In this document: piece by piece, positions 7,019 through 31,982 of the stretch | Position numbering within the stretch: position 1 is the stretch's first letter | How the letters are laid out: each line of letters begins with the position of its first letter | Assembly: GCF_000012805.1 (NCBI RefSeq) | Contig: NC_007484.1 | Location: 2,250,001 to 2,282,000, forward strand | DNA length: 32,000 nucleotides | DNA from: Nitrosococcus oceani ATCC 19707 | GTDB lineage: Bacteria > Pseudomonadota > Gammaproteobacteria > Nitrosococcales > Nitrosococcaceae | Direction: 5' to 3' | Position numbers and translations under genes: made by a program | Notes under the pieces: generated by a model | Told to the model about the DNA's origin: nothing | The model's database searches: none | Seen by the model: the letters and a program-made list of their open reading frames with translations, nothing else

Positions 7019-7131
7019 CTTAATCCCCAAAAAATACGTAACATTTTATTCTTCATAACTTATCCTAATTTAATAACCCTTTGGGGGAGTATCGGCAAGT
7101 TAGATGCGCCCAGGAGCCTTTGAGAAAGGGC

Positions 7132-14635: not shown

Positions 14636-17322
14636 TCTGCATACACTCCGCTTTCTATCCAATCGGCTAATATTTCTAGCTCCGCCTCATTTAAGGTCCA
14701 GGGATGATCAGGGCCAAAATCGATATCATTGGAGCGATCCTCATCGGCGCGGCCATCTAGCCGTTGGCCGGCGGCTTTCCAATACAATAAACTCTCCCGC
14801 GCAAAAAGCATATGGACGTACTTGCTAAGCCAGGGGCGATCCATCCGGCCTGGCGGCGAGGCGCCCTTAATATCTACCGGAGGGGGCTCAAACAGGTGCT
14901 GGGCGTTAATATTATTGGCAAGTTGCCAATAGGTACTTCCTTTATCTGTACCTGGCCGATCCAGGGTTAAGCCGTCAGGAGCTTCATCCCCACTATGACA
15001 GGAAGCGCAGTTTTTCTGAAGCAAGGGGAAGACATCCTGCGCCCATGTCCATTCAGGAACCGAAGACTGCTTTAAAATTACTGGTGGATTTTGAGCCGCA
15101 AGGCTTTCTTCGAATTTCGGAGTCTGATTGGTGCTATGAAGGTGACACCCACCGCAAGTATGGAGTTCTCCTGGCCGCAGGGATTGCACTACTTGATCCC
15201 GAGCAATGGCGCGGCCCTTGCTATCCACTCCCGCCATTAAGTAGGGCATATCGCAAGGGAGTGAGGCAAGAAAAGAACCATCTTCCTCTAGCGGTACATC
15301 CCCCAAGATTCGGGTCCGGATGCCTTGGGAACCATTGAAATCAGAAGTTCGCATCCTGTGCTTAAAAGGGATTACCTCCCAAAACCGTATTTTTACCATT
15401 TCTGACAAATCTATTCCGTGGGTAGAGCAGCCCTGAAGAGCACAGGGGGTCCGGTCTGGAAATTGCCCTTCTCCACCATAATTTCTCACCTCTGCCTTCA
15501 TGGACGCCGCCCCTAGCAAGCATTGTCCAGAATCCGTCGTTTTAATAGGAGGAGTCGCCACCTGGCGCGAGCGCACTAGCCGCGGCATAAACTCTTGCCA
15601 ATCGGGACTATCTACCACCACTAAGGTATTTGTTTCGGCGGCAGGATTTGCCGGAATTCGTGTAGTACGGTAAATACCTGCGTCACAACCCAATTTACGC
15701 TTTTGCACGTCACCTTTGAAATGATTGAAATTAGCAGTATGGCAATACCCCTGTAACCAGGTAAATAATAAATTACCATCTGGAAGTCCCTCAGGATCGC
15801 GCGCGCGCCCCCGCTCATCCGCTGGTATATCGTTACTCCCACCCGCAATTGCTAAATATAAGCCACGGGGCTCAAATGTCGCCTTTTGGGAAAGAGCGCT
15901 CACCGGACTTTCTCCCTCTACATTTCCCGGCTCTACGGGCCAACATAGAATAGTGCCTCCCCCCGAGTTGTTTCCCCGATAATAGTTAGCAGTGCACATA
16001 TCGCCGTTTGCCCGCTCGCCAAGGAAATGGAGTGCCTTGAGAGTATGTAAACCTCGATCAATGGACGCTTGCCTGGTATGCGCGCCCAATTCCGCTTCTA
16101 GACTACCTCCTCGCTGGTCGACCGACATCACCCACCAGAGATTATCCTTGGTACCAAATAAAACCTGCAGCCCCCCTCTGCCGCGGTAAGGCAACATATT
16201 TACTATCTGCCAGGAACTATACATAATCCGACCCGTCTTGCTATGAAGCCACGGGTGCATGGCATTATCTCGCTCATGGGGTCCCACCCGAACTGCCTTG
16301 CTCCCATCTGCTTCCGCCATCCAAAGTTGAAGTGTAGGATGCCATCCTGACGAACCAAGCACACTGGGCCAGTCTCCTGCTCGAGTCGAGGTAAACATAA
16401 TACGATCATCTGGAAGCCACACGGGCCCAGTATCCCAGCTTCCAGGCATATGCGGCCAAGCAACCAATTTGCCGGTCGTAAGATCTAACGTGAAAATTTG
16501 CGCCTCTGCTCCCTTCCGAGCCAACGCTTTATTCGGGATCTCTACTGGAAAACCTCTCGGTTGCCGGTTATATAAGTGGGCGGCACGATAAACGCTAAAA
16601 GCTATCCGAGTGCCATCTAGGCTAACAGCAATATCCATAGGAACACATGGACGGGGCTCCGGAAAAACACAATCATAGAGAATTTCCTCACGTCCATCGG
16701 CACTCCGGTACACCAGCTGACCAGGGCCTGAAAATCTCCAAAGCCGCGCAGTGACATCAGGGAGTTCATCATAGATTCCAAGGTTTCCAAAAATCTTCCC
16801 ATTGATTTCAATTGTAGAGGTAGTGCGAGGAATACGCGTATAAACTATTCCCTCATCCATGTTCCACACATCTTCGGGCTTAGGCTGGGGAATTTCATCC
16901 TTGGGGGAATCACTGGCTACGCCCTCCCACTTTTGATACCTCTCACTACTACCGTTAGTTTTTTCAGTTTCTGGTAGCCTGCGGACAGTTCTGCCCCCTT
17001 CACCTTCTGGCTCAAACTGTAGGCGTCCGTCCCTGACTAGCTCGTCACTATCGCTGGCGTTTTCACTTCCCGGCAATCTTCGGAAAGTTCCGCTCCCTTG
17101 GGCTCCGAAAAGCCGCTGGCGGGCCTCTGGAAGCCACTCGCCACTGCCTTGAAGAGAAATATTGCTTGCAGCAACTCTGAGAGGAGAAACCTTCTGACTA
17201 TCCTTATCGCCACTGGCAGCAGTGGGGACAGCTCCTTGCAACATCCCAAGCAAAACGCAAGCCATAATCCGATGATTAAATACCAACATAACCAAAACTC
17301 TCAAAGATTTTGAGTTAAGCAA
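14632..17322 (-). CDS. Secreted PD40/TolB-like beta-propeller protein with two CXXCH heme-binding motifs and a C-terminal Planctomycete-cytochrome-c-like (PSCyt1-like) domain
   Basis: 896-aa ORF with TTG at 17322; the first ATG is at 17289. The hydrophobic leader is IMACVLLGMLQGAVPTAAS|G. PD40-like blades include IAFSVYRA and GPVWLPDDRIMFTSTRAG. CGGCH is at 15156-15142 (aa 723-727) and CASCH at 15009-14995 (aa 772-776). The context DVFPLLQKNCASCHSG...LNEAELEILADWIESG is typical of PSCyt1 domains. Confidence 0.75.
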   Translation of the reverse strand: MLNSKSLRVLVMLVFNHRIMACVLLGMLQGAVPTAASGDKDSQKVSPLRVAASNISLQGSGEWLPEARQRLFGAQGSGTFRRLPGSENASDSDELVRDGRLQFEPEGEGGRTVRRLPETEKTNGSSERYQKWEGVASDSPKDEIPQPKPEDVWNMDEGIVYTRIPRTTSTIEINGKIFGNLGIYDELPDVTARLWRFSGPGQLVYRSADGREEILYDCVFPEPRPCVPMDIAVSLDGTRIAFSVYRAAHLYNRQPRGFPVEIPNKALARKGAEAQIFTLDLTTGKLVAWPHMPGSWDTGPVWLPDDRIMFTSTRAGDWPSVLGSSGWHPTLQLWMAEADGSKAVRVGPHERDNAMHPWLHSKTGRIMYSSWQIVNMLPYRGRGGLQVLFGTKDNLWWVMSVDQRGGSLEAELGAHTRQASIDRGLHTLKALHFLGERANGDMCTANYYRGNNSGGGTILCWPVEPGNVEGESPVSALSQKATFEPRGLYLAIAGGSNDIPADERGRARDPEGLPDGNLLFTWLQGYCHTANFNHFKGDVQKRKLGCDAGIYRTTRIPANPAAETNTLVVVDSPDWQEFMPRLVRSRQVATPPIKTTDSGQCLLGAASMKAEVRNYGGEGQFPDRTPCALQGCSTHGIDLSEMVKIRFWEVIPFKHRMRTSDFNGSQGIRTRILGDVPLEEDGSFLASLPCDMPYLMAGVDSKGRAIARDQVVQSLRPGELHTCGGCHLHSTNQTPKFEESLAAQNPPVILKQSSVPEWTWAQDVFPLLQKNCASCHSGDEAPDGLTLDRPGTDKGSTYWQLANNINAQHLFEPPPVDIKGASPPGRMDRPWLSKYVHMLFARESLLYWKAAGQRLDGRADEDRSNDIDFGPDHPWTLNEAELEILADWIESGVYAE

Positions 17323-17358: not shown

Positions 17359-19290
17359 TCAAGCCGAGATGCTGCTAGAAGCATTCCGGTCATAGGATTC
17401 TCCCTCCATAGCCTGACGCAAGAAGGCATCAAACATCAAGAGGGACCAAATGGACGCACTGTAATCACGTAGTCCTGATAGGTGCTGGTCGACCAGATGC
17501 CGCAAGATTGGCATCTCGAAAAGCCCAGTTTCTGCTAGTATTTGTCCGGTCACTGCAGTGCGGACTCGTTCCCGGAGCGGGCCTCGAAACCAGGCGGCTA
17601 ACGGTACCGCAAAACCCATTTTCCGCCGATATAAAATCTCATCTGAAAGGTAGGGGCGCAGAGCCCGCTTAAATACGTACTTTCCCTCCCTACTTCGGTA
17701 CTTAAAATGGGGAGATAAGCCGCCAGCCCACTCGACAAACGGATGGTCCAGCAACGGTACCCGCACTTCAAGGCCATGGGCCATGCTAGCGCGATCTACT
17801 TTAGTAAGAATGTCGCCGGGTAAATAGGTTTTTAGGTCTAAGTACTGGACCTGAAGCAGTGGATGATCGGGTGCCTGTCGGGCATGGTTTCGCAATACCT
17901 GCGATGCCTCATAACCCTGAAGCTCTTGGCGCATCCTTTGGCTGAAAAGGCGATGGCGTAATTCATTCGGAATCACCGCCACACTGTGAAAGTAGCCTTC
18001 CAGGGGATCGCGAGCCAATGCTTGGAAGGTTGTCTTAGCGCGAAAGATGCGCGGCGCCCAATCAAGTTTAGGATAGTAATGCCCCAAGATACCAAACAGA
18101 GGCTGCCGCATGCTCAGTGGCAAGATTCCCCGCACCCGCTGCTCATGCAAGTGCCAACGGTAACGACGGTAACCCGCAAAGAGTTCATCGCCTCCATCAC
18201 CAGAGAGAACAACCTTTACCCGCTGGCGCGCCAGTTCGCACACTCTATAGGTAGGCATAGCGGACGAGTCAGCGTAGGGCTCGTCATAAACCCCTGCCAG
18301 CCGGTTAATTAGCTCGAAATCATCCTGATCGACTTGAGCAGAATGATGATTAGTGCCATAACGATGGGCGACCTGCTCGGCGTAGCGGGCTTCATCAAAT
18401 GCTGGATCAGAAAAACCAATCGAGCAGGTACGTACTGGATCATTAGACAATTGGGCCATGGCCGCCACCACGGCGCTGGAGTCTACACCACCGGAAAGGA
18501 ATGCCCCAAGAGGGACATCCGCAACCAATCTAATATTGACCGCTTCTCGGAATTTTTCAATAAGGGTTTCTTCTATGGCTGACTCAGAACCTAACGCTTG
18601 TGGCTCTAAAGTAACATCCCAGTACTGCCGTGGCTCCAATTTTGACGCCCCACAACGGAGCGTAAGTGTGTGGCCCGGCGCAAGCTTATTAGCATAACGG
18701 AAAATAGTGCGAGGATCGGGAATATAACCGAAAGCAAAATAATCTTCTACCGCCAAAGAATCGAGCTGGCGCGGCAAATGAGGATGGGTAATAAGCGCCT
18801 TGAGTTCAGAACCAAAAATGAGCTGCCCATTGGGCAGCAATGCATAATACAGCGGCTTAATGCCTAATCTATCGCGGGCCAGAAAAAGCGTTTCCTGCTT
18901 GCGATCCCAAATAGCAAAAGCAAACATACCCCGAAAATGATGCACGCACTTCTCACCCCATTCCTCCCAAGCATGGACGATGACCTCCGTATCGCACTGG
19001 GTGCGAAAAACATGGCCGCGGTGGCTAAGCTCAGCCATAAGTTCCTTAAAATTGTAAATCTCGCCGTTATAGGTCACCCAAACCGTACCATCTTCGTTAC
19101 TGAGGGGCTGACGGCCTAAGGACAAATCGATGATAGAAAGACGGCGATGAGCAAGACCGATGCCAGGTTCCACATGGATGCCACCACCATCCGGACCCCG
19201 GTGGCGCTGAATATCATTCATACGCGAGAGAATTTCCCGGTCGATGGGGCGGCGCTCATGGAGGTCAAAAATACCTGTTATACCGCACAC
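17359..19290 (-). CDS. Glutamine-hydrolysing asparagine synthase family; exosortase A system-associated amidotransferase type (recalled as TIGR03108-like)
   Basis: 643-aa ORF. GTG sits immediately before TGC, giving the N-terminus MCGITGIF with the Ntn Cys at residue 2, and GGGGG lies 7 nt upstream. Motifs are HRRLSIIDL, YNGEIYNF, FLSGGVDSS and LSGDGGDELFAGY. Confidence 0.9.
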   Translation of the reverse strand: MCGITGIFDLHERRPIDREILSRMNDIQRHRGPDGGGIHVEPGIGLAHRRLSIIDLSLGRQPLSNEDGTVWVTYNGEIYNFKELMAELSHRGHVFRTQCDTEVIVHAWEEWGEKCVHHFRGMFAFAIWDRKQETLFLARDRLGIKPLYYALLPNGQLIFGSELKALITHPHLPRQLDSLAVEDYFAFGYIPDPRTIFRYANKLAPGHTLTLRCGASKLEPRQYWDVTLEPQALGSESAIEETLIEKFREAVNIRLVADVPLGAFLSGGVDSSAVVAAMAQLSNDPVRTCSIGFSDPAFDEARYAEQVAHRYGTNHHSAQVDQDDFELINRLAGVYDEPYADSSAMPTYRVCELARQRVKVVLSGDGGDELFAGYRRYRWHLHEQRVRGILPLSMRQPLFGILGHYYPKLDWAPRIFRAKTTFQALARDPLEGYFHSVAVIPNELRHRLFSQRMRQELQGYEASQVLRNHARQAPDHPLLQVQYLDLKTYLPGDILTKVDRASMAHGLEVRVPLLDHPFVEWAGGLSPHFKYRSREGKYVFKRALRPYLSDEILYRRKMGFAVPLAAWFRGPLRERVRTAVTGQILAETGLFEMPILRHLVDQHLSGLRDYSASIWSLLMFDAFLRQAMEGESYDRNASSSISA

Positions 19291-21785: not shown

Positions 21786-23372
21786 TTATGTTCTCTCTGA
21801 TACTGACTGGCAAGCTAGCATTGCGCCTGAGGTAGAGACTGCCGGCATCTCATTCAAAAATTTTAGCAGGAGCGCACGGGCTTGCTCCGGCTTACCGCTA
21901 TCCGCAGCTACAGCGATGAGCGTGGAGCCGCTTGGCTGCTTGGTAAGATGAGCCCAGGCTTCAAGAAATTTAGCTTTTATCGGACTAGCCGTTCGCTGGC
22001 CAGCAATATCATACCAGTGCCAAATGACGCGCAGCGTATTAGGGGAACGGATAACAGTTTCATGCACTTGGAGATGATCATCACCAAGGGAGAGGCTTCG
22101 GCGATTATCTTCCATCCAACGCCAAATTTGATCATCATAGAGGCGATTTTGAGAACTAATAAGTTCAGCTCCTTGATGCTCTTGCTGATAATAGATAATT
22201 AAAAGCTGTACCGCACTATCATCTGGGAATGAATAGAGACGGCGCACGATTTGATCTGCTTGGGAATAATCTGGCTCCCACATACTGGTCGGGACGGAAG
22301 AACCACTCCAGACCGGCTGCTCCTTAGGCATAGACACCGAACAGTCGGTTTTCGATGCTTGGCCTTTAAACCAAATTCCACTCGCGGGACCGGCACCGGC
22401 CACCAGGATCAGTATAATAGTAGTTACACCCAGTTTTTTTGCACGGGGGGCCTGCTGGGCGACAATCCCTCCAGATTGCCGAGACAACGAGGCCCTGTTG
22501 CCGGGGCACTTATCCTCGCGCCAGAACGATCCCAGCCAAAAGAGTAACGACATGACTACGCCAAAGAAAATCCACCCGTAAACAACATGGTCCACGCCGG
22601 TCGCCAACTTCATATTACTGAGGTAAGCCAGCATAATAACGCCGTAGGCCCGGATACCATTAGCAATAATAGGTACGATAACCGAAGCCACAATAAATGC
22701 CGCGCGGCGCCCATAACTAGAATAAGTAAGATAAGCGTAGAGGGTGCCAAGAACAACCGAAGTAATAAGGTAACGCAGCCCGCTACAAGCTTCCGCAACC
22801 AGAAAATCCCCCGAGGGAATACTAATATAACGCCCTTCCCAGTAAACCGGCACTCCACCGAATTGCAGGCTTTTGACAGCAAAAGCGGCTGTAAAATCTT
22901 GCAGCGGCGGAATTAAAAATTCACCAAACGGTACCGCAAAAACCAAGTAGACAAGTGGAAACGCCAACGCGCGAACGACCCTCTTTCCCAATAACCCCCA
23001 CACCACTACCGGAATCATGGCCACCAATAACAATTGTTCGACAAATAGCACGTCCGCAATCCTAGCCAGTAACCATCCCCCGGATAATAGCAGAATAAAG
23101 AATGCGGCTAGTGGCCGAGGATGGGGTTGAAGCTGCTGGAGCTGCCACCGTCGCGCCCAGATCATATAACCGCTAACCGGAAAAATGAGCATACCATGGG
23201 CAAAGGTCGCAGAACGCCACCAAATAGCCGCCATGGATACTGCGGTTTCCAGATAAAACAGGAATAGGGCAAGCAACACCACAGCTATTGCCACCGTTGC
23301 CAGAGGCCAACTTAGCACCCAATGGGCCTGTTGCCTATCTAGGTACCGCTGTTCGGTCGGGTTCATCTGCAT
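21786..23372 (-). CDS. xrtA: Exosortase A (XrtA/EpsH) fused to a C-terminal EpsI-family domain
   Basis: ATG 23372 follows GGAG plus aaaaaa; the track ORF starts at GTG 23405. The N-terminal half is polytopic and carries the exosortase catalytic signature FLVAEACSGLRYL (Cys at 22787-22785), NGIRAY and DHVVYGWIFFG. An extra TM helix (LGVTTIILILVAGAG) is followed by a soluble domain of about 190 aa (LLIIYYQQEH...IWHWYDIAG) of EpsI type. Confidence 0.9.
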   Translation of the reverse strand: MQMNPTEQRYLDRQQAHWVLSWPLATVAIAVVLLALFLFYLETAVSMAAIWWRSATFAHGMLIFPVSGYMIWARRWQLQQLQPHPRPLAAFFILLLSGGWLLARIADVLFVEQLLLVAMIPVVVWGLLGKRVVRALAFPLVYLVFAVPFGEFLIPPLQDFTAAFAVKSLQFGGVPVYWEGRYISIPSGDFLVAEACSGLRYLITSVVLGTLYAYLTYSSYGRRAAFIVASVIVPIIANGIRAYGVIMLAYLSNMKLATGVDHVVYGWIFFGVVMSLLFWLGSFWREDKCPGNRASLSRQSGGIVAQQAPRAKKLGVTTIILILVAGAGPASGIWFKGQASKTDCSVSMPKEQPVWSGSSVPTSMWEPDYSQADQIVRRLYSFPDDSAVQLLIIYYQQEHQGAELISSQNRLYDDQIWRWMEDNRRSLSLGDDHLQVHETVIRSPNTLRVIWHWYDIAGQRTASPIKAKFLEAWAHLTKQPSGSTLIAVAADSGKPEQARALLLKFLNEMPAVSTSGAMLACQSVSERT

Positions 23373-24624
23373 TTTTTTCTCCACCAGTGGCCTCTTTTGC
23401 CACACTAATTATAGGCGCGAGGGAGGGATGAGTAAGCAACTCCGAGAAACGTTCTAGGTGATTATCCCAATGGTAATTTTGTAAGACATGCTCCCGGCCC
23501 TTCCTACCTGCCTCCTTTCCCTTTCCCTGCAGCAATACGGCAATAGTTTTTGCTGCAAATTGATTCGGCGTTGCACTCACTAGATTCTCACATACCGGAG
23601 GCAAAACAATACCCTCGGCGGCCTCTGGAGTAGCTATCACAGGCCGGGCCATGGCCATCGCCTCCAACAACTTGTTTTGAACTCCACGGGCAATCCTCAG
23701 AGGCGCTACCGCAGCTCGGGCATGGGCTAAATAAGGACGCATATCCGCCACAGTACCTGTCACATATACTTGCCGCTCTGCCGAGAGACGCCGTACAGCT
23801 TCAGCCGGTTGCGTACCCACAATATAGAAACAGGCCGCAGGAACCACCGCTAGAATCTTCGGAAAAATAGTTTTAGTAAACCAAATTACCGCATCTATAT
23901 TAGGACGGTAATTCATGGCACCAGTAAAAACCAACACCCGCTGCTCCGGAGGATACGGAGAAGGATAATGCCGATCCGGGGAGAAAAAATCCGTATCGAC
24001 CCCATTAGGCGCAGCAAATACTTGTTTCGCCACTTCTGGAGCTAAACGGCGGAATAACTCAGCCTCCACCGAGGAAACAAATGTTGCAGCTTTTGCTTGC
24101 GCAGCTATTTTTCGCTCGAAGGCCAAAAGAGTACGGGCTTCACGCTGATAAACCCAAGACAAAGGAGGACTCGATGTCTGACTATAAGCATGCCATTTCT
24201 CTGAATCCACATCCACAAAATCGACAATAGCTGGCACTTGCCGGGGAAGCATAGTTATATACTGAGCCATCACAGAGGAAAACACCACAACGCCTTCCAA
24301 GGAAGGCCGAGCAGCGATGTCTTGCACCCAGCGGCTCATGCAACGATCTTTATAGTAAGCTAAACCAAGCGGCTTACCGGCTACCAACGCTGTCAGGGAT
24401 CGGGCCAATGCGAGAGCCCGCGGTAGCGGCCGCAGGCAAAGCTCATCTACCCCTAACCGATGAAGGTCTGAAGCATATTTCCAGTCTACTGGATCGTCCA
24501 CGAAAGCGCCTACATGGACACGATAACGGCTGGCAAGAAAGCGCAACAAATGATAAGAACGTATTTTATCGCCTTTATTGGGGGGAAAAGGTATCCGGTG
24601 CGCAAGGAATAGAAGATCACCCAT
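23335..24624 (-). CDS. Sugar transferase, PEP-CTERM/EpsH1 system-associated type ('stp1', recalled as TIGR03087-like)
   Basis: ATG 24624 lies 10 nt after the upstream TAA; the track ORF starts at 24654. The N-terminus is MGDLLFLAHRIPFPPNKGDKIRSYHLLRFLA, and the sequence contains GVQNKLLEAMAMARPVIATPEAAEGI. The 3' end overlaps the xrtA start by 38 nt. Confidence 0.85.
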   Translation of the reverse strand: MGDLLFLAHRIPFPPNKGDKIRSYHLLRFLASRYRVHVGAFVDDPVDWKYASDLHRLGVDELCLRPLPRALALARSLTALVAGKPLGLAYYKDRCMSRWVQDIAARPSLEGVVVFSSVMAQYITMLPRQVPAIVDFVDVDSEKWHAYSQTSSPPLSWVYQREARTLLAFERKIAAQAKAATFVSSVEAELFRRLAPEVAKQVFAAPNGVDTDFFSPDRHYPSPYPPEQRVLVFTGAMNYRPNIDAVIWFTKTIFPKILAVVPAACFYIVGTQPAEAVRRLSAERQVYVTGTVADMRPYLAHARAAVAPLRIARGVQNKLLEAMAMARPVIATPEAAEGIVLPPVCENLVSATPNQFAAKTIAVLLQGKGKEAGRKGREHVLQNYHWDNHLERFSELLTHPSLAPIISVAKEATGGEKNADEPDRTAVPR

Positions 24625-26819: not shown

Positions 26820-27062
26820 TCAAAAACGCATGAATACTGTTGCAGACGCCATATTCATGCCAAAATCATTCTCAGAATCCGTAGAATTTCGCTGACCATG
26901 AACATAACGCAAGGATAACCCCGATTTTGGGCTAAACCTGTGCCTTATACCAAGAGAAACATTCCAGAGATTATCCGAGCGGGAAGGATCCAGAGAAGTA
27001 CTCGGAAAAGAACGATGCATCCACATGCCACCCGCCAAGATATTCGTCCGCGAGGAAAAATT
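26820..27062 (-). other. In-frame continuation of the outer-membrane barrel gene downstream of its TAG; encodes the terminal beta-strands and the C-terminal Phe
   Basis: It is in the same frame as 27063..28571 (27063-26820 = 243 = 81x3). Read through, the sequence is ...NLFWI*NFSSRTNILAGGMWMHRSF...LSLRYVHGQRNSTDSENDFGMNMASATVFMRF-stop. It shows the alternating hydrophobic pattern and terminal F typical of beta-barrel OMPs. Confidence 0.6.
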
Positions 27063-28568
27063 CTAGATCCAAAATAGGTTCCCCCCCTTCAGATCCTCTT
27101 CTTCACCGCTCTCCTGGAACTCCCGATTTACTTGAAAACCGCGCACTAACAATCGGGTTTTCTCGGTCATCAGGTGAGTCCAGGACAACATGGTACGCGT
27201 GCTCAGGAAAGTCTCCGTCGTAACCGTCGGTAAAGTATTTATCGGGCCATCGGTAAAATCCGGTTGTTGAAATAACAATTGATCGAAGGTAAAAAATCGC
27301 TGACTATAAGAAGCATTAAAAATGTTACGTTTGGTTCCGTAGGTTGCCCTTACAAAGGCAGTAGTACCAAAAAAACGCTGGCCAACCGCCCCTATTATCC
27401 GTGTCCTACGGGAGGGATTATAAGAAAGACCCACGTTCCATCGGATTCCACTGGTGCTTCCATCTCCAAGCCCTCGGCTAAATGCATTATCTTCATAACC
27501 CAATATCCCAAAAGCCGATACCCGACGGAAAAGAGGCATTTGGAGTCTAAAAAGATAGTTGGCAAGTCGAACTGTTGGGGAATCCTCACGATGAGAGTAA
27601 CGCTGGTTCGTAAGAAACGCCCAGCGAAAACGGTCAAACCGGGAGCCACTCCGTAGAACCCCGAATATTCTATCCGCATTTCTTGTCGGCCTCCCTTCAG
27701 GAGCAACTAAAACTTCTTGGCGTTGATAGCGTACCTGGCCCGAAGCGGTATTTCCCCATCGCCAACAGTAGAAAGGCGATGCCTGTAAAGTTGCAACAGT
27801 GCTAATATTACCGGTTGCAAAGGAATTTCCTGCTCCGCCGAAACCACCACCGCCGAAACCACCACCGCCGAAACCACCACCGCCGAAACCACCACCGCCG
27901 AAACCACCACCGCCGAAACCACCACCGCCGAAACCACCACCGCCGAAACCACCACCGCCGAAACCACCACCGCCGAAACCACCACCGCCGAAACCACCAC
28001 CGCCGAAACCACCGCCGCCGAAACCACCACCGCCGCTGCTACAAACTCCGCTTCTACCACCGCCCATGCCACCGCCCATGCCACCGCCCATGCCACCGCC
28101 CATGCCACCGCCCATGCCACCGCCCATGCCACCGCCCATGCCACCGCCCATGCCACCGCCAAAACCGCGAAATGGTGGTGCGGCACCTGTAGGAGAAATC
28201 AGAGCTTGAAAAACAGTAGCTCGCAAATCAAAAAATAGGTGATCTTTAGCTAATTCTGCCCTAGCCAATCCGAGAAACCGGTGAAAGGTCGTATTTCGAT
28301 CGCCGTCCTTGGCAAAAAACAGATTCTGCATGAGGTAGTTGGCTCCTAGCTGGAGCCGGCTACCCCTACCCCGCAGAGAGAAACCTGGAGTAATTTGGGT
28401 AATAAAGTCACTTTCTTCCTCTCCCCTGGGAGCTAAAGTGACATTATCCGTATAAATCTCCCCCCCGGCTAGTAGAGGCGTAAACCTCCATTCTGCCCCA
28501 TTAGCACAGGCTCCAAAAAGTAAAAATACGCCTCCCCCAATAAGGTTAAAGTGCCTCCTTGCGCACAT
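27063..28568 (-). CDS. PEP-CTERM-locus outer-membrane beta-barrel protein (recalled as TIGR03016-like) with a giant Gly-rich repeat insert; ends prematurely at TAG 27063-27065
   Basis: ATG is at 28568; the track starts one codon earlier at TTG. The signal peptide is MCARRHFNLIGGGVFLLFGACANG|AEW, followed by WRFTPLLAGGEIYTDNVTLAP and amphipathic strands. It sits in the conserved position between the tyrosine kinase and the deacetylase. Confidence 0.7.
   Translation of the reverse strand: MCARRHFNLIGGGVFLLFGACANGAEWRFTPLLAGGEIYTDNVTLAPRGEEESDFITQITPGFSLRGRGSRLQLGANYLMQNLFFAKDGDRNTTFHRFLGLARAELAKDHLFFDLRATVFQALISPTGAAPPFRGFGGGMGGGMGGGMGGGMGGGMGGGMGGGMGGGMGGGRSGVCSSGGGGFGGGGFGGGGFGGGGFGGGGFGGGGFGGGGFGGGGFGGGGFGGGGFGGGGFGGGGFGGGGFGGAGNSFATGNISTVATLQASPFYCWRWGNTASGQVRYQRQEVLVAPEGRPTRNADRIFGVLRSGSRFDRFRWAFLTNQRYSHREDSPTVRLANYLFRLQMPLFRRVSAFGILGYEDNAFSRGLGDGSTSGIRWNVGLSYNPSRRTRIIGAVGQRFFGTTAFVRATYGTKRNIFNASYSQRFFTFDQLLFQQPDFTDGPINTLPTVTTETFLSTRTMLSWTHLMTEKTRLLVRGFQVNREFQESGEEEDLKGGNLFWI
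27840..28034 (-). repeat. 13 tandem copies of a 15-bp unit (plus strand GAAACCACCACCGCC), encoding (GGGGF)x13
   Basis: Counted directly. Twelve units are identical. Unit 12 differs by one base (G instead of A at 28014), which is synonymous (GGT to GGC on the coding strand). Confidence 0.97.
28057..28160 (-). repeat. 8 identical tandem copies of a 12-bp unit (plus strand CCACCGCCCATG) plus a partial ninth, encoding (GGGM)x8-GGG
   Basis: Counted directly. The units span 28057-28152, followed by a partial CCACCGCC at 28153-28160. Confidence 0.97.
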
Positions 28569-28613
28569 CAAGAAAAATCCCTGACATATCCGAAATCCCT
28601 AACAAGATAATCA

Positions 28614-29507
28614 TTATTTGCCATTGGAATAGCTGCCGTAGTAATAGCCGCCGTAATAATCCTGGCCTGATGCTTGCCGATTTTTATTCAGCACCAACCA
28701 GATCAATTTATTAGATTGATCTAGCAGGGAAAGCGCTTCCTTGACAGCGGTTTGTGGGGTACGTCCGGTTTCAACTACCAATACAATTTGGCCCATGAGA
28801 TGAGCCAATGCACTGGGCTGGCTAGCTGCAAGCAAAGGCGAGCTATCAATAATAATTATTCGCTCTGGATAGCGCCGGGAAACATCTTCTGCAAACATCG
28901 CCATCTGTTTACTGGCAAGCAACTCCGTTGAACGGGAATAAGGTTTTCCTGCTCCCACAACACGAAGGTTGTCAATATTAGTACGCACCATCACGTCAGC
29001 TAAATCTAGAGTAGGATCCCTCAGCACTTCCACCAAACCGGTCCTTTCCGTAAGGCTAAGAGTGCGGGTTAGCTGCGGTCTCACCACATCTGCATCTATT
29101 AAAAGAACAGTATGGTTATACTCCATCACAATACTCATCGCCAGGTTGATTGAAGTAAAGGTCTTCCCTTCCCCCGAAAGTGCACTCGTCACCATAATCA
29201 CATTGCTGTATTCATCGGAATTAACGCTGCCGTCAAGTGCTCTTTTCAGAATAGGTCTTTTTATCATGCGATACTCTTCCGCAATCCGGCTTTGGGGTTC
29301 AGCCGGTACGATAAAACCTTTTTGGCGCAGCGCCTCTAAATCTAACTGATGCATTTGGGATCTTCTCTCTCCCGGCCTAACCCGTATTTTGGGGGACGCT
29401 GGCTGTTGCTCTAAAGAATTCGAAGAGAGAGGGGTTGCACTTGCAGGAGTCAAAGTTTCTTGACCGATTATGTTTTTACGCTCCATCGCTTTTTCAATGC
29501 TACTCAT
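28614..29507 (-). CDS. BY-type tyrosine autokinase, EPS/PEP-CTERM locus type (EpsG-like; recalled as TIGR03018-like)
   Basis: ATG follows AAGGA plus an 8-nt spacer. Walker A is SALSGEGKTFTS, Walker A' is LLIDADV and Walker B is IIIDSSP. The C-terminal Tyr cluster is QDYYGGYYYGSYSNGK. There is no TM segment, so this would be the soluble kinase partner of the upstream Wzz-like protein. Confidence 0.88.
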   Translation of the reverse strand: MSSIEKAMERKNIIGQETLTPASATPLSSNSLEQQPASPKIRVRPGERRSQMHQLDLEALRQKGFIVPAEPQSRIAEEYRMIKRPILKRALDGSVNSDEYSNVIMVTSALSGEGKTFTSINLAMSIVMEYNHTVLLIDADVVRPQLTRTLSLTERTGLVEVLRDPTLDLADVMVRTNIDNLRVVGAGKPYSRSTELLASKQMAMFAEDVSRRYPERIIIIDSSPLLAASQPSALAHLMGQIVLVVETGRTPQTAVKEALSLLDQSNKLIWLVLNKNRQASGQDYYGGYYYGSYSNGK

Positions 29508-29739: not shown

Positions 29740-31341
29740 CTAAAAAAGCGAATGCTTAATTGTGTCGAACATTTTGATACCAAAGAGATAATTGGATACC
29801 AATAATCCATATCCAGCGATGAGAAGACCTAGAAAAGTAAGAAGAAACGCCAGATTAAGCCGATGCTTCCATAAAATACGCCCTGATAATATCATTGATA
29901 CCGGGCCTAGGACGGGAAGCCCCGTCGCTTCTTCTAAATCCCGGCGGGTATAAAAAACGGGCCTTAATTGGGAAAGAAAAAATGCCAAAGCCCCTCCGGC
30001 ACCTCCCGCAACCACCAGAACTAACGTTAATAACAAGGGGCGGTCAGGACCAGAAGGGAGGAGCGGCTGTATAGGCGGCTCCACAATTTTAAACTTAACA
30101 TTATCTGGCGACTCTTCCACCCTTTCACCCATTTTCGCTGATTCTAGGCGGGTTAATAGTTGCTGATAGTTGCTTTTATAAACCCCATAGTCACGATTTA
30201 GCTGAGCTAATTCCGCTTCTACCTTAGGAATAGTATCGACGAGCTCATGCAACCGTTCTACATCTTTCTCTAAGGCGCTAACTTCCGCTTCTTGAGAAGC
30301 AATATTGGCTTCCGCTTCTGCCAGAGAAATCTGCATTTGCTGATAATAAAAGTTACCCCCCACTGCATATTCTCCCGCTTCATTAGCTTCTTCTCCTTCA
30401 CCTTGCTGCTTCTGCGGCAAAGAAAATTGCTGCTCTTCTCTTTTTTGTAACATCGCAATAGTTTCTTTAATCGCCGAAACCTTTGGATGTTTATCCGTGT
30501 ACTTGAGCAACACCTCATCTAGTTCCGCTTGCAAGGATTGAATACGCATACCCGCAGGACTACTATCTTTCGACGAGGTTCCTGTTCCACCTGTTCCAAA
30601 TCCAAAAACCGGTTCCTCTCCTCTCAATTGACGTTTAAGTACATCCCGGCGCCCTATCGCCATATTAAGCTCAGTGCGCGCCGTACGTAAATTCTCTACC
30701 GCAGTCTGCAAACGCTGATAATAATCGCCCTTTTCATTGGGCATCATGCCTACATGCTCCCGCTTAAAGTCCATTAACCTTTGTTCAGCAGTACGAAGCA
30801 GTTTTTCATATTCTTTAATTTGTTGGCCAATGAACTGTTGAGCAGTATTACTATCTTTACGGGAGGCACCCATAGTGCTTTCCACAAAAATATTCAATAT
30901 GGCCTGCACCACCCGCTGTGCAAGTTGAGGATCAGTATTTTCATATGCAATTGTATATAGATTATCTCTTCTCGCCCCTTTTATATGGATATTTTTTTCA
31001 AGCTGGTTAAGGAGTTTGATTTCCTGCTCCGGCGTGGTCACGGACAAATCCATATCGGTTTGACGGAGTACCTTTCCTAAATTAGGCCGGCTTAATAAAG
31101 TCTGAGTCATTATTCTAAGCCTTTGGTCTACATTAGGCTGAATAGCCAATCCTTTCAAAAGGGGGCGCAGTAGCGAATCAGTATCGACATAAACTCGTGC
31201 TGAGGATTCATATCTATCAGGCATCTGGATCACATATGTCCAACCCACAATCACCACCACCCATGCCATTAGAACGCCATACCAACGGTAACGCCAAATC
31301 CCGCACCAATAACTATATAGCTGTAACCACAGCTCATGCAT
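29740..31341 (-). CDS. Polysaccharide chain-length determinant (Wzz/PCP domain), PEP-CTERM locus subfamily (EpsF-like; recalled as TIGR03007-like)
   Basis: 533-aa ORF with ATG 14 nt after the upstream stop. The N-terminal TM segment is WYGVLMAWVVVIVGWTYVI, followed by PDRYESSARVYVD. It has a long coiled-coil periplasmic region and C-terminal TM helices. Confidence 0.88.
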   Translation of the reverse strand: MHELWLQLYSYWCGIWRYRWYGVLMAWVVVIVGWTYVIQMPDRYESSARVYVDTDSLLRPLLKGLAIQPNVDQRLRIMTQTLLSRPNLGKVLRQTDMDLSVTTPEQEIKLLNQLEKNIHIKGARRDNLYTIAYENTDPQLAQRVVQAILNIFVESTMGASRKDSNTAQQFIGQQIKEYEKLLRTAEQRLMDFKREHVGMMPNEKGDYYQRLQTAVENLRTARTELNMAIGRRDVLKRQLRGEEPVFGFGTGGTGTSSKDSSPAGMRIQSLQAELDEVLLKYTDKHPKVSAIKETIAMLQKREEQQFSLPQKQQGEGEEANEAGEYAVGGNFYYQQMQISLAEAEANIASQEAEVSALEKDVERLHELVDTIPKVEAELAQLNRDYGVYKSNYQQLLTRLESAKMGERVEESPDNVKFKIVEPPIQPLLPSGPDRPLLLTLVLVVAGGAGGALAFFLSQLRPVFYTRRDLEEATGLPVLGPVSMILSGRILWKHRLNLAFLLTFLGLLIAGYGLLVSNYLFGIKMFDTIKHSLF

Positions 31342-31355
31342 GAGTCTTTATCCTT

Positions 31356-31982
31356 TTAAAACCAAGCCTCGGGAATAATCAGTATATCGCCCGGTAATAT
31401 CTCTACATTAGCGGTAATATCTCCATCTCTAATCAAATCATCCAACCGTACCGAAAACTGCTTTTCGCGGCCATTTGCCGTGCGAACGAGGGTTGCACTG
31501 TTGCCAGCGGCAAATTCCGTGAGTCCTCCTACCTCAATCATCACATCGAGCAAGCTCATATGCTCTTGATAGCTGAGAGCACTAGGATCAGCCGCTTCAC
31601 CTACCACCCGAACCTGTTCGCTAAAGCGTCCAATAAACTCATTTACTATAACGGTAACAATAGGCGCTCTCACATAACGAGACAAGATTTTTTCTATATC
31701 CCGGGCAAGCTCAGTCGGTGTCTTACCACTTGCCTGAAGATCCTCAACCAACGGTGAAGTTAGGCGCCCATCAGGGTGTACAATAATACTGCTTGAAAGT
31801 TCCTCGTTACCCCAGACAAAAATATCTACCTGGTCTCCAGGACCAATAATATAGTAAGGCGTCTGTCCTTCTTGAGCCGCTACAACAGGGGCCGGTGGCT
31901 TATTACTGGCACAGCCAAAGATAGCCGCTGCAATCAAGGATATGAGCAAGCACCCAATAAATTTATGGCTTCTAAGATGCAT
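31356..31982 (-). CDS. Wza-like polysaccharide export lipoprotein, PEP-CTERM system-associated type (EpsE-like; recalled as TIGR03027-like)
   Basis: ATG follows AAGG plus an 8-nt spacer. The lipobox is LIAAAIFG|C. The Poly_export motif is YIIGPGDQVDIFVWGNEELS, and there is an SLBB-like C-terminal part (ILPGDILIIPE). Confidence 0.88.
   Translation of the reverse strand: MHLRSHKFIGCLLISLIAAAIFGCASNKPPAPVVAAQEGQTPYYIIGPGDQVDIFVWGNEELSSSIIVHPDGRLTSPLVEDLQASGKTPTELARDIEKILSRYVRAPIVTVIVNEFIGRFSEQVRVVGEAADPSALSYQEHMSLLDVMIEVGGLTEFAAGNSATLVRTANGREKQFSVRLDDLIRDGDITANVEILPGDILIIPEAWF

What the first reader, a model, noticed from the sequence alone, without database searches (positions are those of the whole stretch)
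27832..28165. Perfect in-frame minisatellites encode a ~110-residue (GGGM)8-linker-(GGGGF)13 segment inside the locus-specific outer-membrane barrel
Seen directly:
- Two adjacent tandem arrays sit inside the OMP gene: a 12-bp unit x8 and a 15-bp unit x13.
- They are separated by a 22-bp linker, with junction codons reading GGGRSGVCSS.
- 20 of the 21 units are identical to their own array's consensus. The single difference is synonymous.
- Both unit lengths are multiples of 3, so gain or loss of copies by slippage would change length without breaking the frame.

What this suggests:
- Near-identity at the DNA level implies very recent expansion or ongoing concerted evolution, as in a contingency or VNTR-type locus.
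- The product would be a disordered segment of about 80% Gly, with Met and then Phe spaced every 4-5 residues.
- It is inserted after the first predicted strands of a barrel that otherwise looks like an ordinary amphipathic beta-barrel.
- That composition resembles FG-nucleoporin or glycine-loop (loricrin/keratin, plant GRP) cohesive sequences more than known bacterial OMP loops.
- In a barrel dedicated to an EPS/exosortase system it could be a flexible plug, a gate or a tether to the polymer.
- The coding strand is also G-tract rich (GGG every 12 nt), so secondary DNA structure is conceivable.

I am not aware of such an insert being a described feature of this protein family, but I cannot search.
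Basis: partly seen in the sequence, partly recalled or inferred. Interest (0 to 1): 0.8.

Follow-up and report, generated by a model that had tools for sequence, protein, structure and literature searches.

The report
Glycine-repeat loop in truncated EPS barrel
A Nitrosococcus oceani outer-membrane barrel in a slime-export gene cluster carries a real, fast-evolving ~110-residue glycine-repeat loop that all its close relatives share and that may act as a flexible plug, but in this genome a stop codon cuts the gene short.

Summary
On the minus strand, 8 perfect 12-bp units (28065-28160) encode (GGGM)8. A 30-bp linker encodes GGGRSGVCSS. Then 13 units of 15 bp (27840-28034, one synonymous variant) encode (GGGGF)13. 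All lie in frame inside a TIGR03016 barrel gene of the XrtA/PEP-CTERM locus of Nitrosococcus oceani.

- **Conserved in the clade, rare in the family.** N. watsonii, N. halophilus and a metagenome relative have a 65-75% Gly insert at the same site. Each is built from its own repeat unit. Among the best 150 family representatives, only this clade has it.
- **Position.** Two AlphaFold models give a 22-stranded barrel. The insert sits between strands 5 and 6, inferred to be extracellular loop 3.
- **Cysteine pair.** Insert-bearing orthologs have exactly two mature cysteines: one mid-insert and one lumen-facing on strand 6.
- **Favoured mechanism (inferred, unproven).** A tethered, flexible lumen plug or gate for polysaccharide export alongside the short OPX protein three genes away.
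A TGG-to-TAG nonsense codon (27063-27065) removes the last 4-5 strands and the C-terminal β-signal. It is also in strain NS58 and six Logan run assemblies, but not in C-27, AFC27 or a divergent, probably AFC132-type N. oceani protein.
- **Not resolved.** Copy-number variation within the species.

The parts
26820..28568 (-). TIGR03016-family PEP-CTERM/XrtA-associated outer-membrane beta-barrel gene. The full reading frame runs from the ATG at 28568 (or the TTG at 28571) to the stop after ...ATVFMRF. In this genome it is interrupted by an in-frame TAG.
   Evidence: The 502-aa ORF scores 166 bits against TIGR03016 (cut-off 90.85). The downstream same-frame 72-codon ORF matches profile positions 418-477. 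The N. watsonii ortholog is 90% identical and intact, at 600 aa.
28503..28568 (-). Predicted Sec signal peptide (MCARRHFNLIGGGVFLLFGACA, with an A-C-A signal peptidase I-type site). It is not a canonical lipobox.
   Evidence: Read directly from the sequence. The AlphaFold model shows an N-terminal helix at residues 3-24. The cleavage site is inferred, not tested.
28065..28160 (-). 12-bp minisatellite: 8 identical GGCGGTGGCATG units encoding (GGGM)8.
28035..28064 (-). Non-repeated linker encoding GGGRSGVCSS. It holds the insert's only Cys codon (TGT, 28041-28043).
   Evidence: The linker protein sequence is identical in N. watsonii. A single Cys is also present mid-insert in N. halophilus and in metagenome locus L003.
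27840..28034 (-). 15-bp minisatellite: 13 GGCGGTGGTGGTTTC units (unit 2 has a synonymous GGC) encoding (GGGGF)13.
27765..27767 (-). Cys codon in strand 6 (motif SPFYCWRW). It is the only other Cys of the mature protein and the candidate disulfide partner of the linker Cys.
   Evidence: insert-bearing orthologs have exactly these two mature Cys, while 133 of 159 other family representatives have none after residue 40. Position in strand 6 and lumen-facing parity come. The disulfide itself is inferred.
27063..27065 (-). In-frame TAG nonsense codon (TGG Trp in relatives). It removes the end of strand 18, strands 19-22 and the C-terminal beta-signal.
   Evidence: TAG is also in NS58 and six Logan run assemblies. 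TGG is in C-27, SRR9429920, AFC27, a divergent N. oceani protein and N. watsonii.
31356..31982 (-). Short (208 aa) class-3/D1D2-type OPX polysaccharide export protein, the presumed periplasmic partner of the barrel.
   Evidence: TIGR03027 at 238 bits; EpsY model at E=6.6e-27. Pfam finds Poly_export and SLBB only, with no Wza_C.
29740..31341 (-). XrtA-system polysaccharide chain-length determinant (PCP).
   Evidence: TIGR03007 at 696 bits.
28614..29507 (-). XrtA-associated tyrosine autokinase, immediately upstream of the barrel gene.
   Evidence: TIGR03018 at 291 bits. The protein is identical to ABA58445.1 of N. oceani ATCC 19707.
21786..23405 (-). Exosortase A (XrtA) fused to an EpsI domain. 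It defines the locus type.
   Evidence: TIGR03109 at 342 bits and TIGR02914 at 170 bits.

Best explanation
**What is shown**
- The segment is a genuine insert of about 108 residues, 75% glycine, with Met or Phe every 4-5 residues.
- It is encoded by two in-frame minisatellites inside the TIGR03016 outer-membrane barrel of the XrtA/PEP-CTERM exopolysaccharide locus of Nitrosococcus oceani.
- It is conserved at the same site in the Nitrosococcus clade and is rare elsewhere in the family.
- Its repeat units are replaced between species by slippage or unequal exchange, while composition, approximate length and one central Cys are kept.
- This genome carries a recent TGG-to-TAG nonsense allele that deletes the last 4-5 strands and the beta-signal.

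**What is inferred from models**
- The barrel has 22 strands.
- The insert replaces the short strand 5-strand 6 connection, which is extracellular loop 3.

**Mechanism I favour (inference only)**
- The barrel is the outer-membrane exit pore that works with the short class-3 OPX protein encoded three genes away.
- The Gly-rich loop folds back into the wide lumen as a flexible, weakly cohesive plug or gate.
- A disulfide holds the loop there, linking its central Cys to a lumen-facing Cys near the periplasmic end of strand 6.
- The plug keeps the large pore closed, and the emerging polymer pushes it aside.
- Because of the nonsense allele, the barrel, and with it the loop, is probably non-functional in this strain.
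For: **Anatomy**
- Perfect in-frame arrays.
- TIGR03016 matches on both sides of the insert.
- The alignment puts the insert at one site, with zero residues there in ten other family members.

**Clade conservation with unit turnover**
- N. watsonii has a 27-bp unit x13.6, N. halophilus a 15-bp unit x14, and L003 two different 15-bp units.
- Flanks are 88% identical at DNA level, with 98 synonymous and 52 non-synonymous codon differences, while units within an array are about 100% identical.
- Insert lengths are 108, 126, 87 and at least 93 residues, at 65-75% Gly.

**Rarity**
- Only P0001-P0003 among the 150 best representatives (of 2963 with E<=1e-30) have a window above 37% Gly.

**Topology**
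- Two AlphaFold models, one with and one without the insert, each give 22 strands.
- Short turns and long loops alternate consistently when counted from both termini.
- Foldseek's best matches are 22- to 26-stranded barrels (BtuB, LptD, FimD, MtrB). All of these are plugged in nature, which is established knowledge.

**Cysteine pair**
- Exactly two mature Cys occur in the three full-length insert-bearing orthologs and in the N-terminally truncated metagenome protein P0003.
- The strand-6 Cys shares parity with Q, S and R, so it faces the lumen. In N. halophilus it is shifted by two residues, which keeps it on the same face.
- 133 of 159 other representatives have no Cys after residue 40.

**Export context**
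- The OPX protein is 208 aa with Poly_export and SLBB only.
- Short OPX proteins are generally coupled to a barrel within five genes: PMC9601211.
- Class-3 OPX proteins lack their own gate, and a porin loop is proposed to gate instead: PMC12819527.
- In PelB, a short glycine-rich extracellular loop (Plug-S) gates the pore, and deleting it leaves the pore open: PMC12141448.
- The family profile gives a weak hit to the PelB barrel (E=0.02).

**Nonsense allele**
-.
Against: - No coordinates were available. Loop sidedness rests on strand parity from DSSP strings, and the models used shallow alignments (12-14 sequences, mean pLDDT 66-73).
- AlphaFold gives the insert pLDDT of about 25, so nothing shows that it enters the lumen.
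- The disulfide is inferred only from co-occurrence and parity.
- The barrel has 22 strands, unlike the 16-18-stranded characterised EPS porins. No significant sequence link to EpsX/Wzp was seen.
- The barrel's substrate could be PEP-CTERM proteins, or something else.
- More than 98% of sampled family members manage without the insert.
- The hydrophobic residue (M, F or L) is not conserved.
- A distinct lineage (L002) carries a (GGGGF)n array at a different connection, a predicted periplasmic turn. That could instead reflect a mutational propensity.
- Two isolates (this genome and NS58) grow in culture with the truncated gene, so the gene is dispensable under those conditions.
Confidence: 0.45

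Rival explanations
1. The insert is a tolerated by-product of slippage. A permissive surface loop acquired a GGN-rich seed in the Nitrosococcus ancestor. Replication slippage keeps expanding, contracting and homogenising it. The segment is inert, disordered filler with no specific role.
For: - Units turn over completely between species.
- The hydrophobic residue varies between M, F and L.
- AlphaFold treats the insert as disordered.
- More than 98% of sampled family members lack it.
- An unrelated lineage has a (GGGGF)n array at another site, which suggests a mutational tendency.
- The gene is dispensable in culture, given the nonsense allele in two isolates (this genome and NS58).
Against: - The insert is retained at the same site in lineages whose barrels are only 48-60% identical to the window's outside the insert.
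- Gly content is constant at 65-75%, length stays at about 90-126 residues, and a hydrophobic residue recurs every 4-5 positions.
- A central non-repeat linker with one Cys is conserved. A second, lumen-facing Cys is present where most other family members have none.
- Neutral repeats would be expected to be lost in at least some lineages.
Confidence: 0.3
2. The insert is a surface-variation module. It is an exposed loop whose length changes by in-frame slippage, altering accessibility of the barrel or nearby surface to phages, grazers or bacteriocins. This would resemble polymorphic in-frame repeat regions in other surface proteins.
For: - Units are multiples of 3 and almost perfectly pure.
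- The location is predicted to be extracellular.
- Copy number appears to differ: 13 here, 7 in NS58 and 3 in C-27, in genomes otherwise more than 99.99% identical.
- Units turn over between species.
Against: - The 7- and 3-copy arrays come from short-read drafts. Six Logan contigs and the C-27 contig break inside the arrays, so collapse is likely.
- C-27 lacks the variant unit 2, as a collapsed array would.
- Composition is conserved rather than diversified.
- No phage or receptor evidence exists.
Confidence: 0.12
3. The insert is a periplasmic or polymer tether. The Gly-rich segment hangs on the periplasmic side, or extends outward, as an entropic linker that contacts the OPX ring, peptidoglycan or the exported polymer rather than occluding the pore.
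For: - L002 carries its Gly-Phe array at a predicted periplasmic turn.
- The strand-6 Cys lies near the periplasmic rim.
- Sidedness was inferred without coordinates.
Against: - Strand parity counted from both termini, and the short-turn/long-loop alternation in two independent models, place the strand 5-strand 6 connection on the extracellular side.
- The segment has no recognisable binding motif.
Confidence: 0.08
4. The array is an artefact of assembly or sequencing, or the real coding frame is the Pro-rich frame on the opposite strand.
For: - Perfect tandem repeats are prone to misassembly.
- The plus strand has open frames reading (KPPPP)n through the repeat.
Against: - The same arrays and linker appear in the NS58 assembly, and in part in the C-27 assembly.
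- Homologous arrays occur in the N. watsonii and N. halophilus assemblies.
- TIGR03016 homology continues in the same minus-strand frame on both sides of the repeats.
- The plus-strand frames are simply the complement of Gly codons.
Confidence: 0.02
5. The insert is a copper-binding surface loop. The MGGGM / MGGM spacing resembles Met-rich Cu(I) motifs, which would be relevant to a copper-dependent ammonia oxidiser.
For: (GGGM)8 here, and (MGGMG)n in L003, give MX3M and MXXM spacings. The resemblance to Mets motifs rests on my own knowledge and was not tested.
Against: - N. halophilus has only 2 Met in its insert and uses Leu instead. The longer array here uses Phe. Met is therefore not the conserved feature.
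- The gene's context is polysaccharide export, not metal handling.
Confidence: 0.03

Closest known systems
TIGR03016 family PEP-CTERM system-associated outer membrane protein (overlaps Pfam PF10082, BBP2_2)
   Same: The barrel matches the family model well above the cut-off on both sides of the insert. It sits in the canonical XrtA locus between the tyrosine autokinase and the polysaccharide deacetylase. Both the ortholog and an insert-free member model as 22-stranded barrels.
   Different: It carries an insert of about 108 residues, 75% Gly, encoded by minisatellites, in the strand 5-strand 6 loop. Ten aligned members and 147 of the 150 best representatives lack it. It has a Cys pair where most of the family has none. 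In this genome it is truncated by a nonsense codon.
PelB Plug-S, the glycine-rich extracellular gating loop of the Pel exopolysaccharide porin (PMC12141448)
   Same: Both are glycine-rich, flexible extracellular loops of an EPS-pathway outer-membrane barrel. In PelB the loop occludes the exit pore, and deleting it leaves the pore constitutively open. The family profile gives a weak hit to the PelB barrel, E=0.02.
   Different: Plug-S is a short tetra-glycine loop between strands 15 and 16, and it is not repetitive. Here the loop is about 110 residues, between strands 5 and 6 of a 22-stranded barrel, and built from tandem repeats. Gating here is inferred, not shown.
Composite class-3 (D1D2) OPX / beta-barrel translocons: EpsY-EpsX, WzaB-WzpB, VpsN-VpsM (PMC9601211, PMC9603273, PMC12819527)
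   Same: A 208-aa OPX protein with only Poly_export and SLBB domains lies three genes from a dedicated barrel, next to PCP and tyrosine-kinase genes. The model proposes that an extracellular loop of the porin is the gate.
   Different: The characterised partner barrels have 18 strands and resemble AlgE or PgaA, with loop 5 as the restriction point. This barrel models as 22 strands and shows no significant sequence match to them.
Plugged large barrels: TonB-dependent transporters (BtuB), LptD-LptE, FimD usher, MtrB-MtrA
   Same: They are the best structural matches (TM about 0.4-0.5) and have 22-26 strands. All need something to fill the lumen, which is established knowledge.
   Different: In those proteins the plug is a folded domain or a partner protein, not a low-complexity loop. 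There is no sequence homology (7-10% identity).
Polymorphic in-frame repeat regions of surface proteins, for example Bordetella pertactin (GGXXP)n and (PQP)n (own knowledge, not checked here)
   Same: Both have tandem units in multiples of 3 in an exposed segment, so slippage changes length without breaking the frame.
   Different: For those proteins, strain-to-strain copy variation is documented. Here it is unresolved. The composition here is far more extreme, and the host protein is an integral barrel.
FG-nucleoporin repeats and glycine-loop proteins (loricrin, keratins, plant GRPs)
   Same: These are Gly-rich, low-complexity sequences with regularly spaced aromatic or hydrophobic residues that can form cohesive, flexible meshes (own knowledge).
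   Different: The resemblance is in composition only. The spacers here are pure Gly, not hydrophilic, the protein is bacterial and periplasm-assembled, and no cohesion or phase behaviour was tested.

Membership tests
TIGR03016 PEP-CTERM/XrtA-associated outer membrane protein | Whole-protein score above NCBIfam's curated cut-off | tested here: met
   166 bits against a cut-off of 90.85, in two stretches flanking the insert. The C-terminal fragment matches profile positions 418-477.
TIGR03016 PEP-CTERM/XrtA-associated outer membrane protein | Located in an XrtA/PEP-CTERM EPS locus | tested here: met
   XrtA-EpsI, TIGR03087/03088/04063 glycosyltransferases, FemAB, deacetylase, tyrosine kinase, PCP, OPX and amidotransferase genes are all in the window.
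TIGR03016 PEP-CTERM/XrtA-associated outer membrane protein | Complete barrel ending in a C-terminal aromatic beta-signal | tested here: not met
   The TAG at 27063-27065 ends the product at residue 501, before ...ATVFMRF. Intact alleles exist in C-27, AFC27 and N. watsonii.
Composite class-3 OPX / beta-barrel polysaccharide translocon | OPX protein of 280 aa or less with a PES/Poly_export motif and no C-terminal membrane-spanning helix | tested here: met
   208 aa with Poly_export and SLBB only; TIGR03027; EpsY-like at E=6.6e-27. The criteria come from PMC9601211.
Composite class-3 OPX / beta-barrel polysaccharide translocon | Outer-membrane barrel gene within five genes of the OPX gene | tested here: met
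   The barrel is the third gene downstream of the OPX gene on the same strand.
Composite class-3 OPX / beta-barrel polysaccharide translocon | Partner barrel is an 18-stranded AlgE/PgaA-like porin | tested here: not met
   Two models give 22 strands. The best folds are 22-26-stranded barrels. The only sequence link is a weak PelB hit, E=0.02.
Composite class-3 OPX / beta-barrel polysaccharide translocon | Physical and functional coupling of the OPX protein and the barrel in polymer export | not testable with these tools
   This needs pull-downs, mutants or structures.
Contingency / VNTR locus | Highly pure tandem repeat within a gene | tested here: met
   100% and 98% matches over 8 and 13 units.
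Contingency / VNTR locus | Copy number differs among strains or within populations | tested here: inconclusive
   13 copies here, 7 in NS58 and 3 in C-27. The latter two are short-read assemblies, and other contigs break inside the array. Two metagenome scans found nothing.
Contingency / VNTR locus | Slippage switches expression on and off through frameshifts | tested here: not met
   Units are 12 and 15 bp here, and 27 and 15 bp in relatives. All are multiples of 3.
FG-nucleoporin-like cohesive low-complexity domain | Forms a cohesive, selectively permeable phase through spaced Phe residues | not testable with these tools
   Only the composition is known: 13 Phe and 8 Met in 108 residues, 75% Gly. 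A repeat-only protein search gave no significant hits.
G-quadruplex-forming repeat | Four or more G3 tracts with loops of 7 nt or less | tested here: not met
   There are no canonical motifs. Only extended-loop (9-nt) or two-tetrad patterns occur, and an imperfect hairpin is the predicted structure.

The most novel reading that the evidence does not exclude
A bacterial outer-membrane export channel is gated by a disulfide-tethered, cohesive glycine-(Phe/Met/Leu) low-complexity mesh, not by a folded plug domain. This would be a prokaryotic counterpart of the FG-nucleoporin permeability barrier. The mesh would sit inside a 22-stranded polysaccharide or PEP-CTERM-protein export barrel. Its length could be tuned quickly because hypermutable in-frame minisatellites encode it.
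Probability: 0.12. Interest if true: 0.8.

Novelty: new variant of a known kind. Interest (0 to 1): 0.5.

Why it matters
- **A handle on an uncharacterised barrel.** The TIGR03016 barrel is a conserved component of XrtA/PEP-CTERM exopolysaccharide systems, and I found no functional study of it. These systems underlie floc and biofilm formation in many environmental bacteria.
- **An open question in export.** How short class-3 OPX systems close and open their outer-membrane exit is still unsettled. A 22-stranded barrel with no plug domain raises the question of what seals it.
- **A natural experiment.** The Nitrosococcus clade offers a huge, low-complexity, probably disulfide-tethered loop at a defined position. 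Natural alleles exist that differ in repeat architecture, and natural truncated and intact alleles occur within one near-clonal species.
- **A practical caution.** The type-strain lineage of N. oceani probably lacks a functional copy of this barrel, which matters for any EPS or aggregation work with it. The repeat also breaks short-read assemblies and gene models in this locus.

Tried and rejected
- **Genome-collection scan.** It returned only two distant MAG loci and no Nitrosococcus.
- **Homology searches.** They never listed N. oceani's own entries, although exact look-ups proved those entries exist. Absence from these searches is therefore not evidence.
- **Two metagenome scans.** A protein-pattern scan and an exact linker-DNA scan found nothing. 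No population-level copy-number data could be obtained.
- **Exact look-up of the window's ORF.** The 501/502-aa ORF is not on record.
- **Protein search with the repeat alone.** 8000 candidates, none significant. A PDB sequence search gave only a weak low-complexity hit to DotG/IcmE, which I disregarded.
- **Plus-strand frames.** The (KPPPP)n and other open frames were rejected as complements of Gly codons.
- **G-quadruplex idea.** Rejected for lack of canonical motifs.
- **Lipoprotein reading of 'LFGAC'.** Rejected, because it is not a canonical lipobox and the Cys is absent in N. halophilus.
- **Copper-binding Met-motif idea.** Considered unlikely, because Met is replaced by Leu or Phe in relatives.
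- **First attempt at the representative search.** It was redone with permitted ones.
- **Literature searches.** No description of a Gly-rich insert in exosortase-associated barrels was found.
Full report
**1. The observation**

TRF finds a 15-bp array at 27835-28035 (13.4 copies, 98% matches, score 395). It finds a 12-bp array at 28057-28160 (8.7 copies, 100%, score 208). Nothing else in the window exceeds 2.5 copies.

Parsed on the coding (minus) strand:
- 8 identical GGCGGTGGCATG units lie at 28065-28160.
- A 30-bp unique linker encoding GGGRSGVCSS lies at 28035-28064.
- 13 GGCGGTGGTGGTTTC units lie at 27840-28034. Only unit 2 differs, by a synonymous GGT-to-GGC change.

The insert is 108 residues and 75% Gly, with 13 Phe and 8 Met. 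The repeat is 69% G+C in a 50% G+C window. The frame is not in doubt. The ORF matches TIGR03016 at 166 bits (cut-off 90.85) in two stretches on either side of the repeats. The open plus-strand frames reading (KPPPP)n are just the complement of Gly codons.

**2. Organism and locus**

Four neighbouring proteins were looked up first, and all are identical to N. oceani ATCC 19707 entries ABA58442, -445, -446 and -447. The deacetylase matches ABA58443. The window is therefore Nitrosococcus oceani.

The locus is a textbook XrtA/PEP-CTERM exopolysaccharide cluster, all on the minus strand. In order:
- a short OPX protein (208 aa; Poly_export and SLBB only);
- the PCP chain-length determinant;
- the tyrosine autokinase;
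- the barrel;
- a polysaccharide deacetylase;
- a FemAB-family protein;
- glycosyltransferases;
- XrtA-EpsI;
- further glycosyltransferases and the amidotransferase.

**3.

The barrel ORF stops at a TAG (27063-27065). The same frame then continues for about 80 more codons to ...ATVFMRF, a typical C-terminal beta-signal. That tail matches the end of the TIGR03016 profile.

The N. watsonii ortholog has TGG (Trp) at this codon in an otherwise identical context, TTTTGGATCT[G/A]GAATTTTTCC. The SNP is real and polymorphic:
- TAG is in strain NS58 and in six independent Logan run assemblies.
- TGG is in C-27, SRR9429920, AFC27 (EDZ68335.1) and a divergent N. oceani protein (WP_231561782.1).

NS58 differs from ATCC 19707 by only nine SNPs (PMC6715879), so the two share this allele lineage. 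AFC27's annotated 239-residue C-terminal fragment matches the window exactly apart from this codon, so the mutation is recent. Mapped on the model, the truncation removes the end of strand 18 and strands 19-22. A barrel without its beta-signal should not be assembled. This last step is an inference from established BAM biology.

**4. Is the insert strain-specific?**

No. It is specific to the clade. The orthologs compare as follows.

| Ortholog | Length | Identity to window | Insert architecture |
|---|---|---|---|
| N. watsonii | 600 aa | 90% outside the repeats | (GGGGMGGGF)6-GGGRSGVCSS-(GGGGMGGGF)6..., one 27-bp unit x13.6 |
| N. halophilus | 572 aa | 48% | (GGGGF)..GGGGC..(GGGGL)8(GGGGM)2, 15-bp unit x14 |
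| JGI metagenome protein, locus L003 | 447 aa (N-terminally truncated at the contig end) | about 60% | (MGGMG)n..GVCGS..(GGGGL)6, two different 15-bp units |

All three inserts sit at exactly the same alignment position. Ten more distant family members have no residues there.

A profile search of 1.84 billion representatives found 2963 family members at E<=1e-30. Among the best 150, only the Nitrosococcus-clade sequences have any 30-residue window above 37% Gly.

Flanking DNA is 88% identical between this window and N. watsonii, with 98 synonymous and 52 non-synonymous codon differences. That is consistent with purifying selection. Units within each array are about 100% identical. This is concerted evolution with complete unit turnover since speciation.

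Four properties are nevertheless kept:
- Gly content stays at 65-75%.
- Length stays at 87-126 residues.
- A hydrophobic residue recurs every 4-5 positions.
- A central non-repeat segment holds a single Cys.

**5. Where the insert sits**

AlphaFold2 of the intact N. watsonii ortholog gave mean pLDDT 66, with most barrel blocks at 78-95 and the insert at about 25. The insert-free member P0004 gave mean pLDDT 73. Each model has 22 strands.

The insert replaces the 16-residue connection between strands 5 and 6. Counting from either terminus, which are both periplasmic in outer-membrane barrels, this is an extracellular loop, L3. The 2-4-residue turns and the long loops alternate consistently with that parity.

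Foldseek's best matches are 22-26-stranded barrels: BtuB and other TonB-dependent transporters, LptD, FimD and MtrB, at TM about 0.4-0.5. I had no coordinates, so sidedness and any lumen entry are inferred, not observed.

**6. The cysteine pair**

The mature proteins of the three full-length insert-bearing orthologs, and the N-terminally truncated metagenome protein P0003, contain exactly two Cys. One is in the middle of the insert. The other is in strand 6: FYCWRW here and in N. watsonii, SYCWRW in L003, and SPCYRW in N. halophilus.

In strand 6 the Cys shares parity with Q, S and R, the polar lumen face. It lies next to a Y/W/W aromatic girdle near the periplasmic end. The N. halophilus Cys is shifted by two residues, which keeps it on the same face.

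Of 159 other family representatives, 133 have no Cys after residue 40. I read this as a candidate disulfide that pins the centre of the loop inside the lumen. It would divide the loop into a (GGGM)8 arm and a (GGGGF)13 arm. This is inference only.

**7. How it most likely works**

Short class-3 (D1D2) OPX proteins lack a membrane-spanning domain. They are typically coupled to a barrel gene within five genes (PMC9601211). They also lack the Wza tyrosine-ring gate, and an extracellular loop of the porin is proposed to gate instead (PMC12819527). In PelB, a short glycine-rich extracellular loop (Plug-S) occludes the pore, and deleting it gives a constitutively open channel (PMC12141448).

This window has the short OPX protein and the dedicated barrel. 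The family profile gives a weak hit to the PelB barrel, E=0.02. Barrels of this size with solved structures are all plugged, which is established knowledge.

My preferred mechanism is that the Gly-rich L3 loop is a flexible, weakly cohesive plug or gate, probably disulfide-tethered, in the exit barrel of the XrtA EPS pathway. Caveats:
- The barrel has 22 strands, not the 16-18 of characterised EPS porins.
- Its substrate is unproven.
- Most family members lack the insert.
- In this genome the gene is probably dead.

**8. Rival explanations**

- **Neutral slippage filler (0.30).** Unit turnover, predicted disorder, rarity in the family and a second-site array in another lineage support it. Clade-wide retention, constant composition and length, and the Cys pair argue against it.
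- **Surface-variation module (0.12).** It would fit in-frame slippage in an exposed loop. However, the only within-species differences (13, 7 and 3 copies) come from short-read drafts. NS58 is MiSeq/SPAdes. C-27's contig starts inside the 12-bp array and lacks the variant unit 2. Six Logan contigs break in the 15-bp array. This remains unresolved.
- **Periplasmic or polymer tether (0.08).** It would require the strand parity to be wrong.
- **Copper binding by Met motifs (0.03).** Leu and Phe substitution in relatives contradicts it.
- **Artefact or wrong frame (0.02).** Independent assemblies and flanking homology refute it.

**9. DNA structure**

There is no canonical G-quadruplex motif. Only G3 tracts with 9-nt loops, or two-tetrad patterns, occur. 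The G-rich coding strand is predicted to form an imperfect hairpin within the 12-bp array (-53.8 kcal/mol, z = -6.9). The C-rich strand is predicted to be unstructured. A hairpin could favour slippage, but this is a prediction only.

**10. Verdict**

This is a new variant of a known kind: a TIGR03016 barrel with a clade-specific, minisatellite-encoded glycine loop and an associated Cys pair. I found no description of it in the literature searched. Interest is moderate. The feature is unusual and experimentally tractable, and natural allelic contrasts exist. Its function is still inferred, and this genome carries a truncated allele.

Noticed in passing
window 27063-27065 (minus strand): An in-frame TAG interrupts the barrel gene. 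Relatives have TGG (Trp) at this codon. The allele is polymorphic within N. oceani: TAG in this window, NS58 and six Logan run assemblies; TGG in C-27, AFC27, SRR9429920 and a divergent strain.
   Followed up: yes
L002 4563-4640 (MAG contig CAYUWI010000050.1, contig end): A distinct gammaproteobacterial TIGR03016 homolog (38% identical) has no insert at the Nitrosococcus site. It carries a (GGGGF)n-type array about 60 residues further on, at the conserved SGxRFxRxxW connection between strands 8 and 9, a predicted periplasmic turn. Its nearest representatives (P0027, P0031) lack it. The contig ends inside the array.
   Followed up: partly
L006 2481-2711 (NS58); L008 1-90 (C-27); L007 and L009-L014 contig starts: Draft assemblies of near-identical N. 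oceani strains show 7 or 3 copies of the 15-bp unit instead of 13, or break inside the arrays. Deposited gene models for this gene are fragmented: 158, 239 and 324 aa (P0184, P0183, P0185). It is unclear whether this reflects real copy-number change or assembly collapse.
   Followed up: partly
window 27765-27767 and 28041-28043 (minus strand): These two Cys codons are the only ones of the mature protein. They co-occur with the insert across the clade, while most of the family is Cys-free. This suggests a loop-to-strand-6 disulfide.
   Followed up: partly
window 14632-17322 (minus strand): An 896-aa ORF sits inside the XrtA locus. Its only hits are a hydrazine-synthase-alpha middle domain (PF18582, E=1.4e-12) and a PD40 beta-propeller repeat. 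Its function in an EPS locus is unclear.
   Followed up: no
window 490-2313 (minus strand): This is a second, divergent paralog of the XrtA-system amidotransferase / asparagine synthase (279 bits, well below the 817-bit cut-off). The match starts at profile position 99, so the N-terminal glutaminase part may be missing or divergent. The canonical copy is at 17359-19290.
   Followed up: no
window 4922-7030, 7132-9414, 9502-10626, 2536-3192 (minus strand): Four ORFs (702, 760, 374 and 218 aa) downstream in the same cluster have no NCBIfam hit at E<=1e-10.
   Followed up: no
window 27799-28209 and 27815-28192 (plus strand); 27707-28186 (minus strand): Long open frames through the repeat, such as (KPPPP)n, (RRNHH)n and (AVAW)n/(AVVVS)n, are by-products of the repeat. 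They could be mis-called as genes.
   Followed up: yes
family profile A3 against PDB chain 9h80_M (PelB residues 960-1035): A weak sequence-profile hit (E=0.02) links the TIGR03016 family to the PelB exopolysaccharide porin barrel. It hints at distant homology despite the different strand number.
   Followed up: no
tool behaviour: Homology and locus searches did not return any N. oceani entries, although exact look-ups show these entries are in the collections. Absence of same-species hits in those searches should not be read as biological absence.
   Followed up: partly
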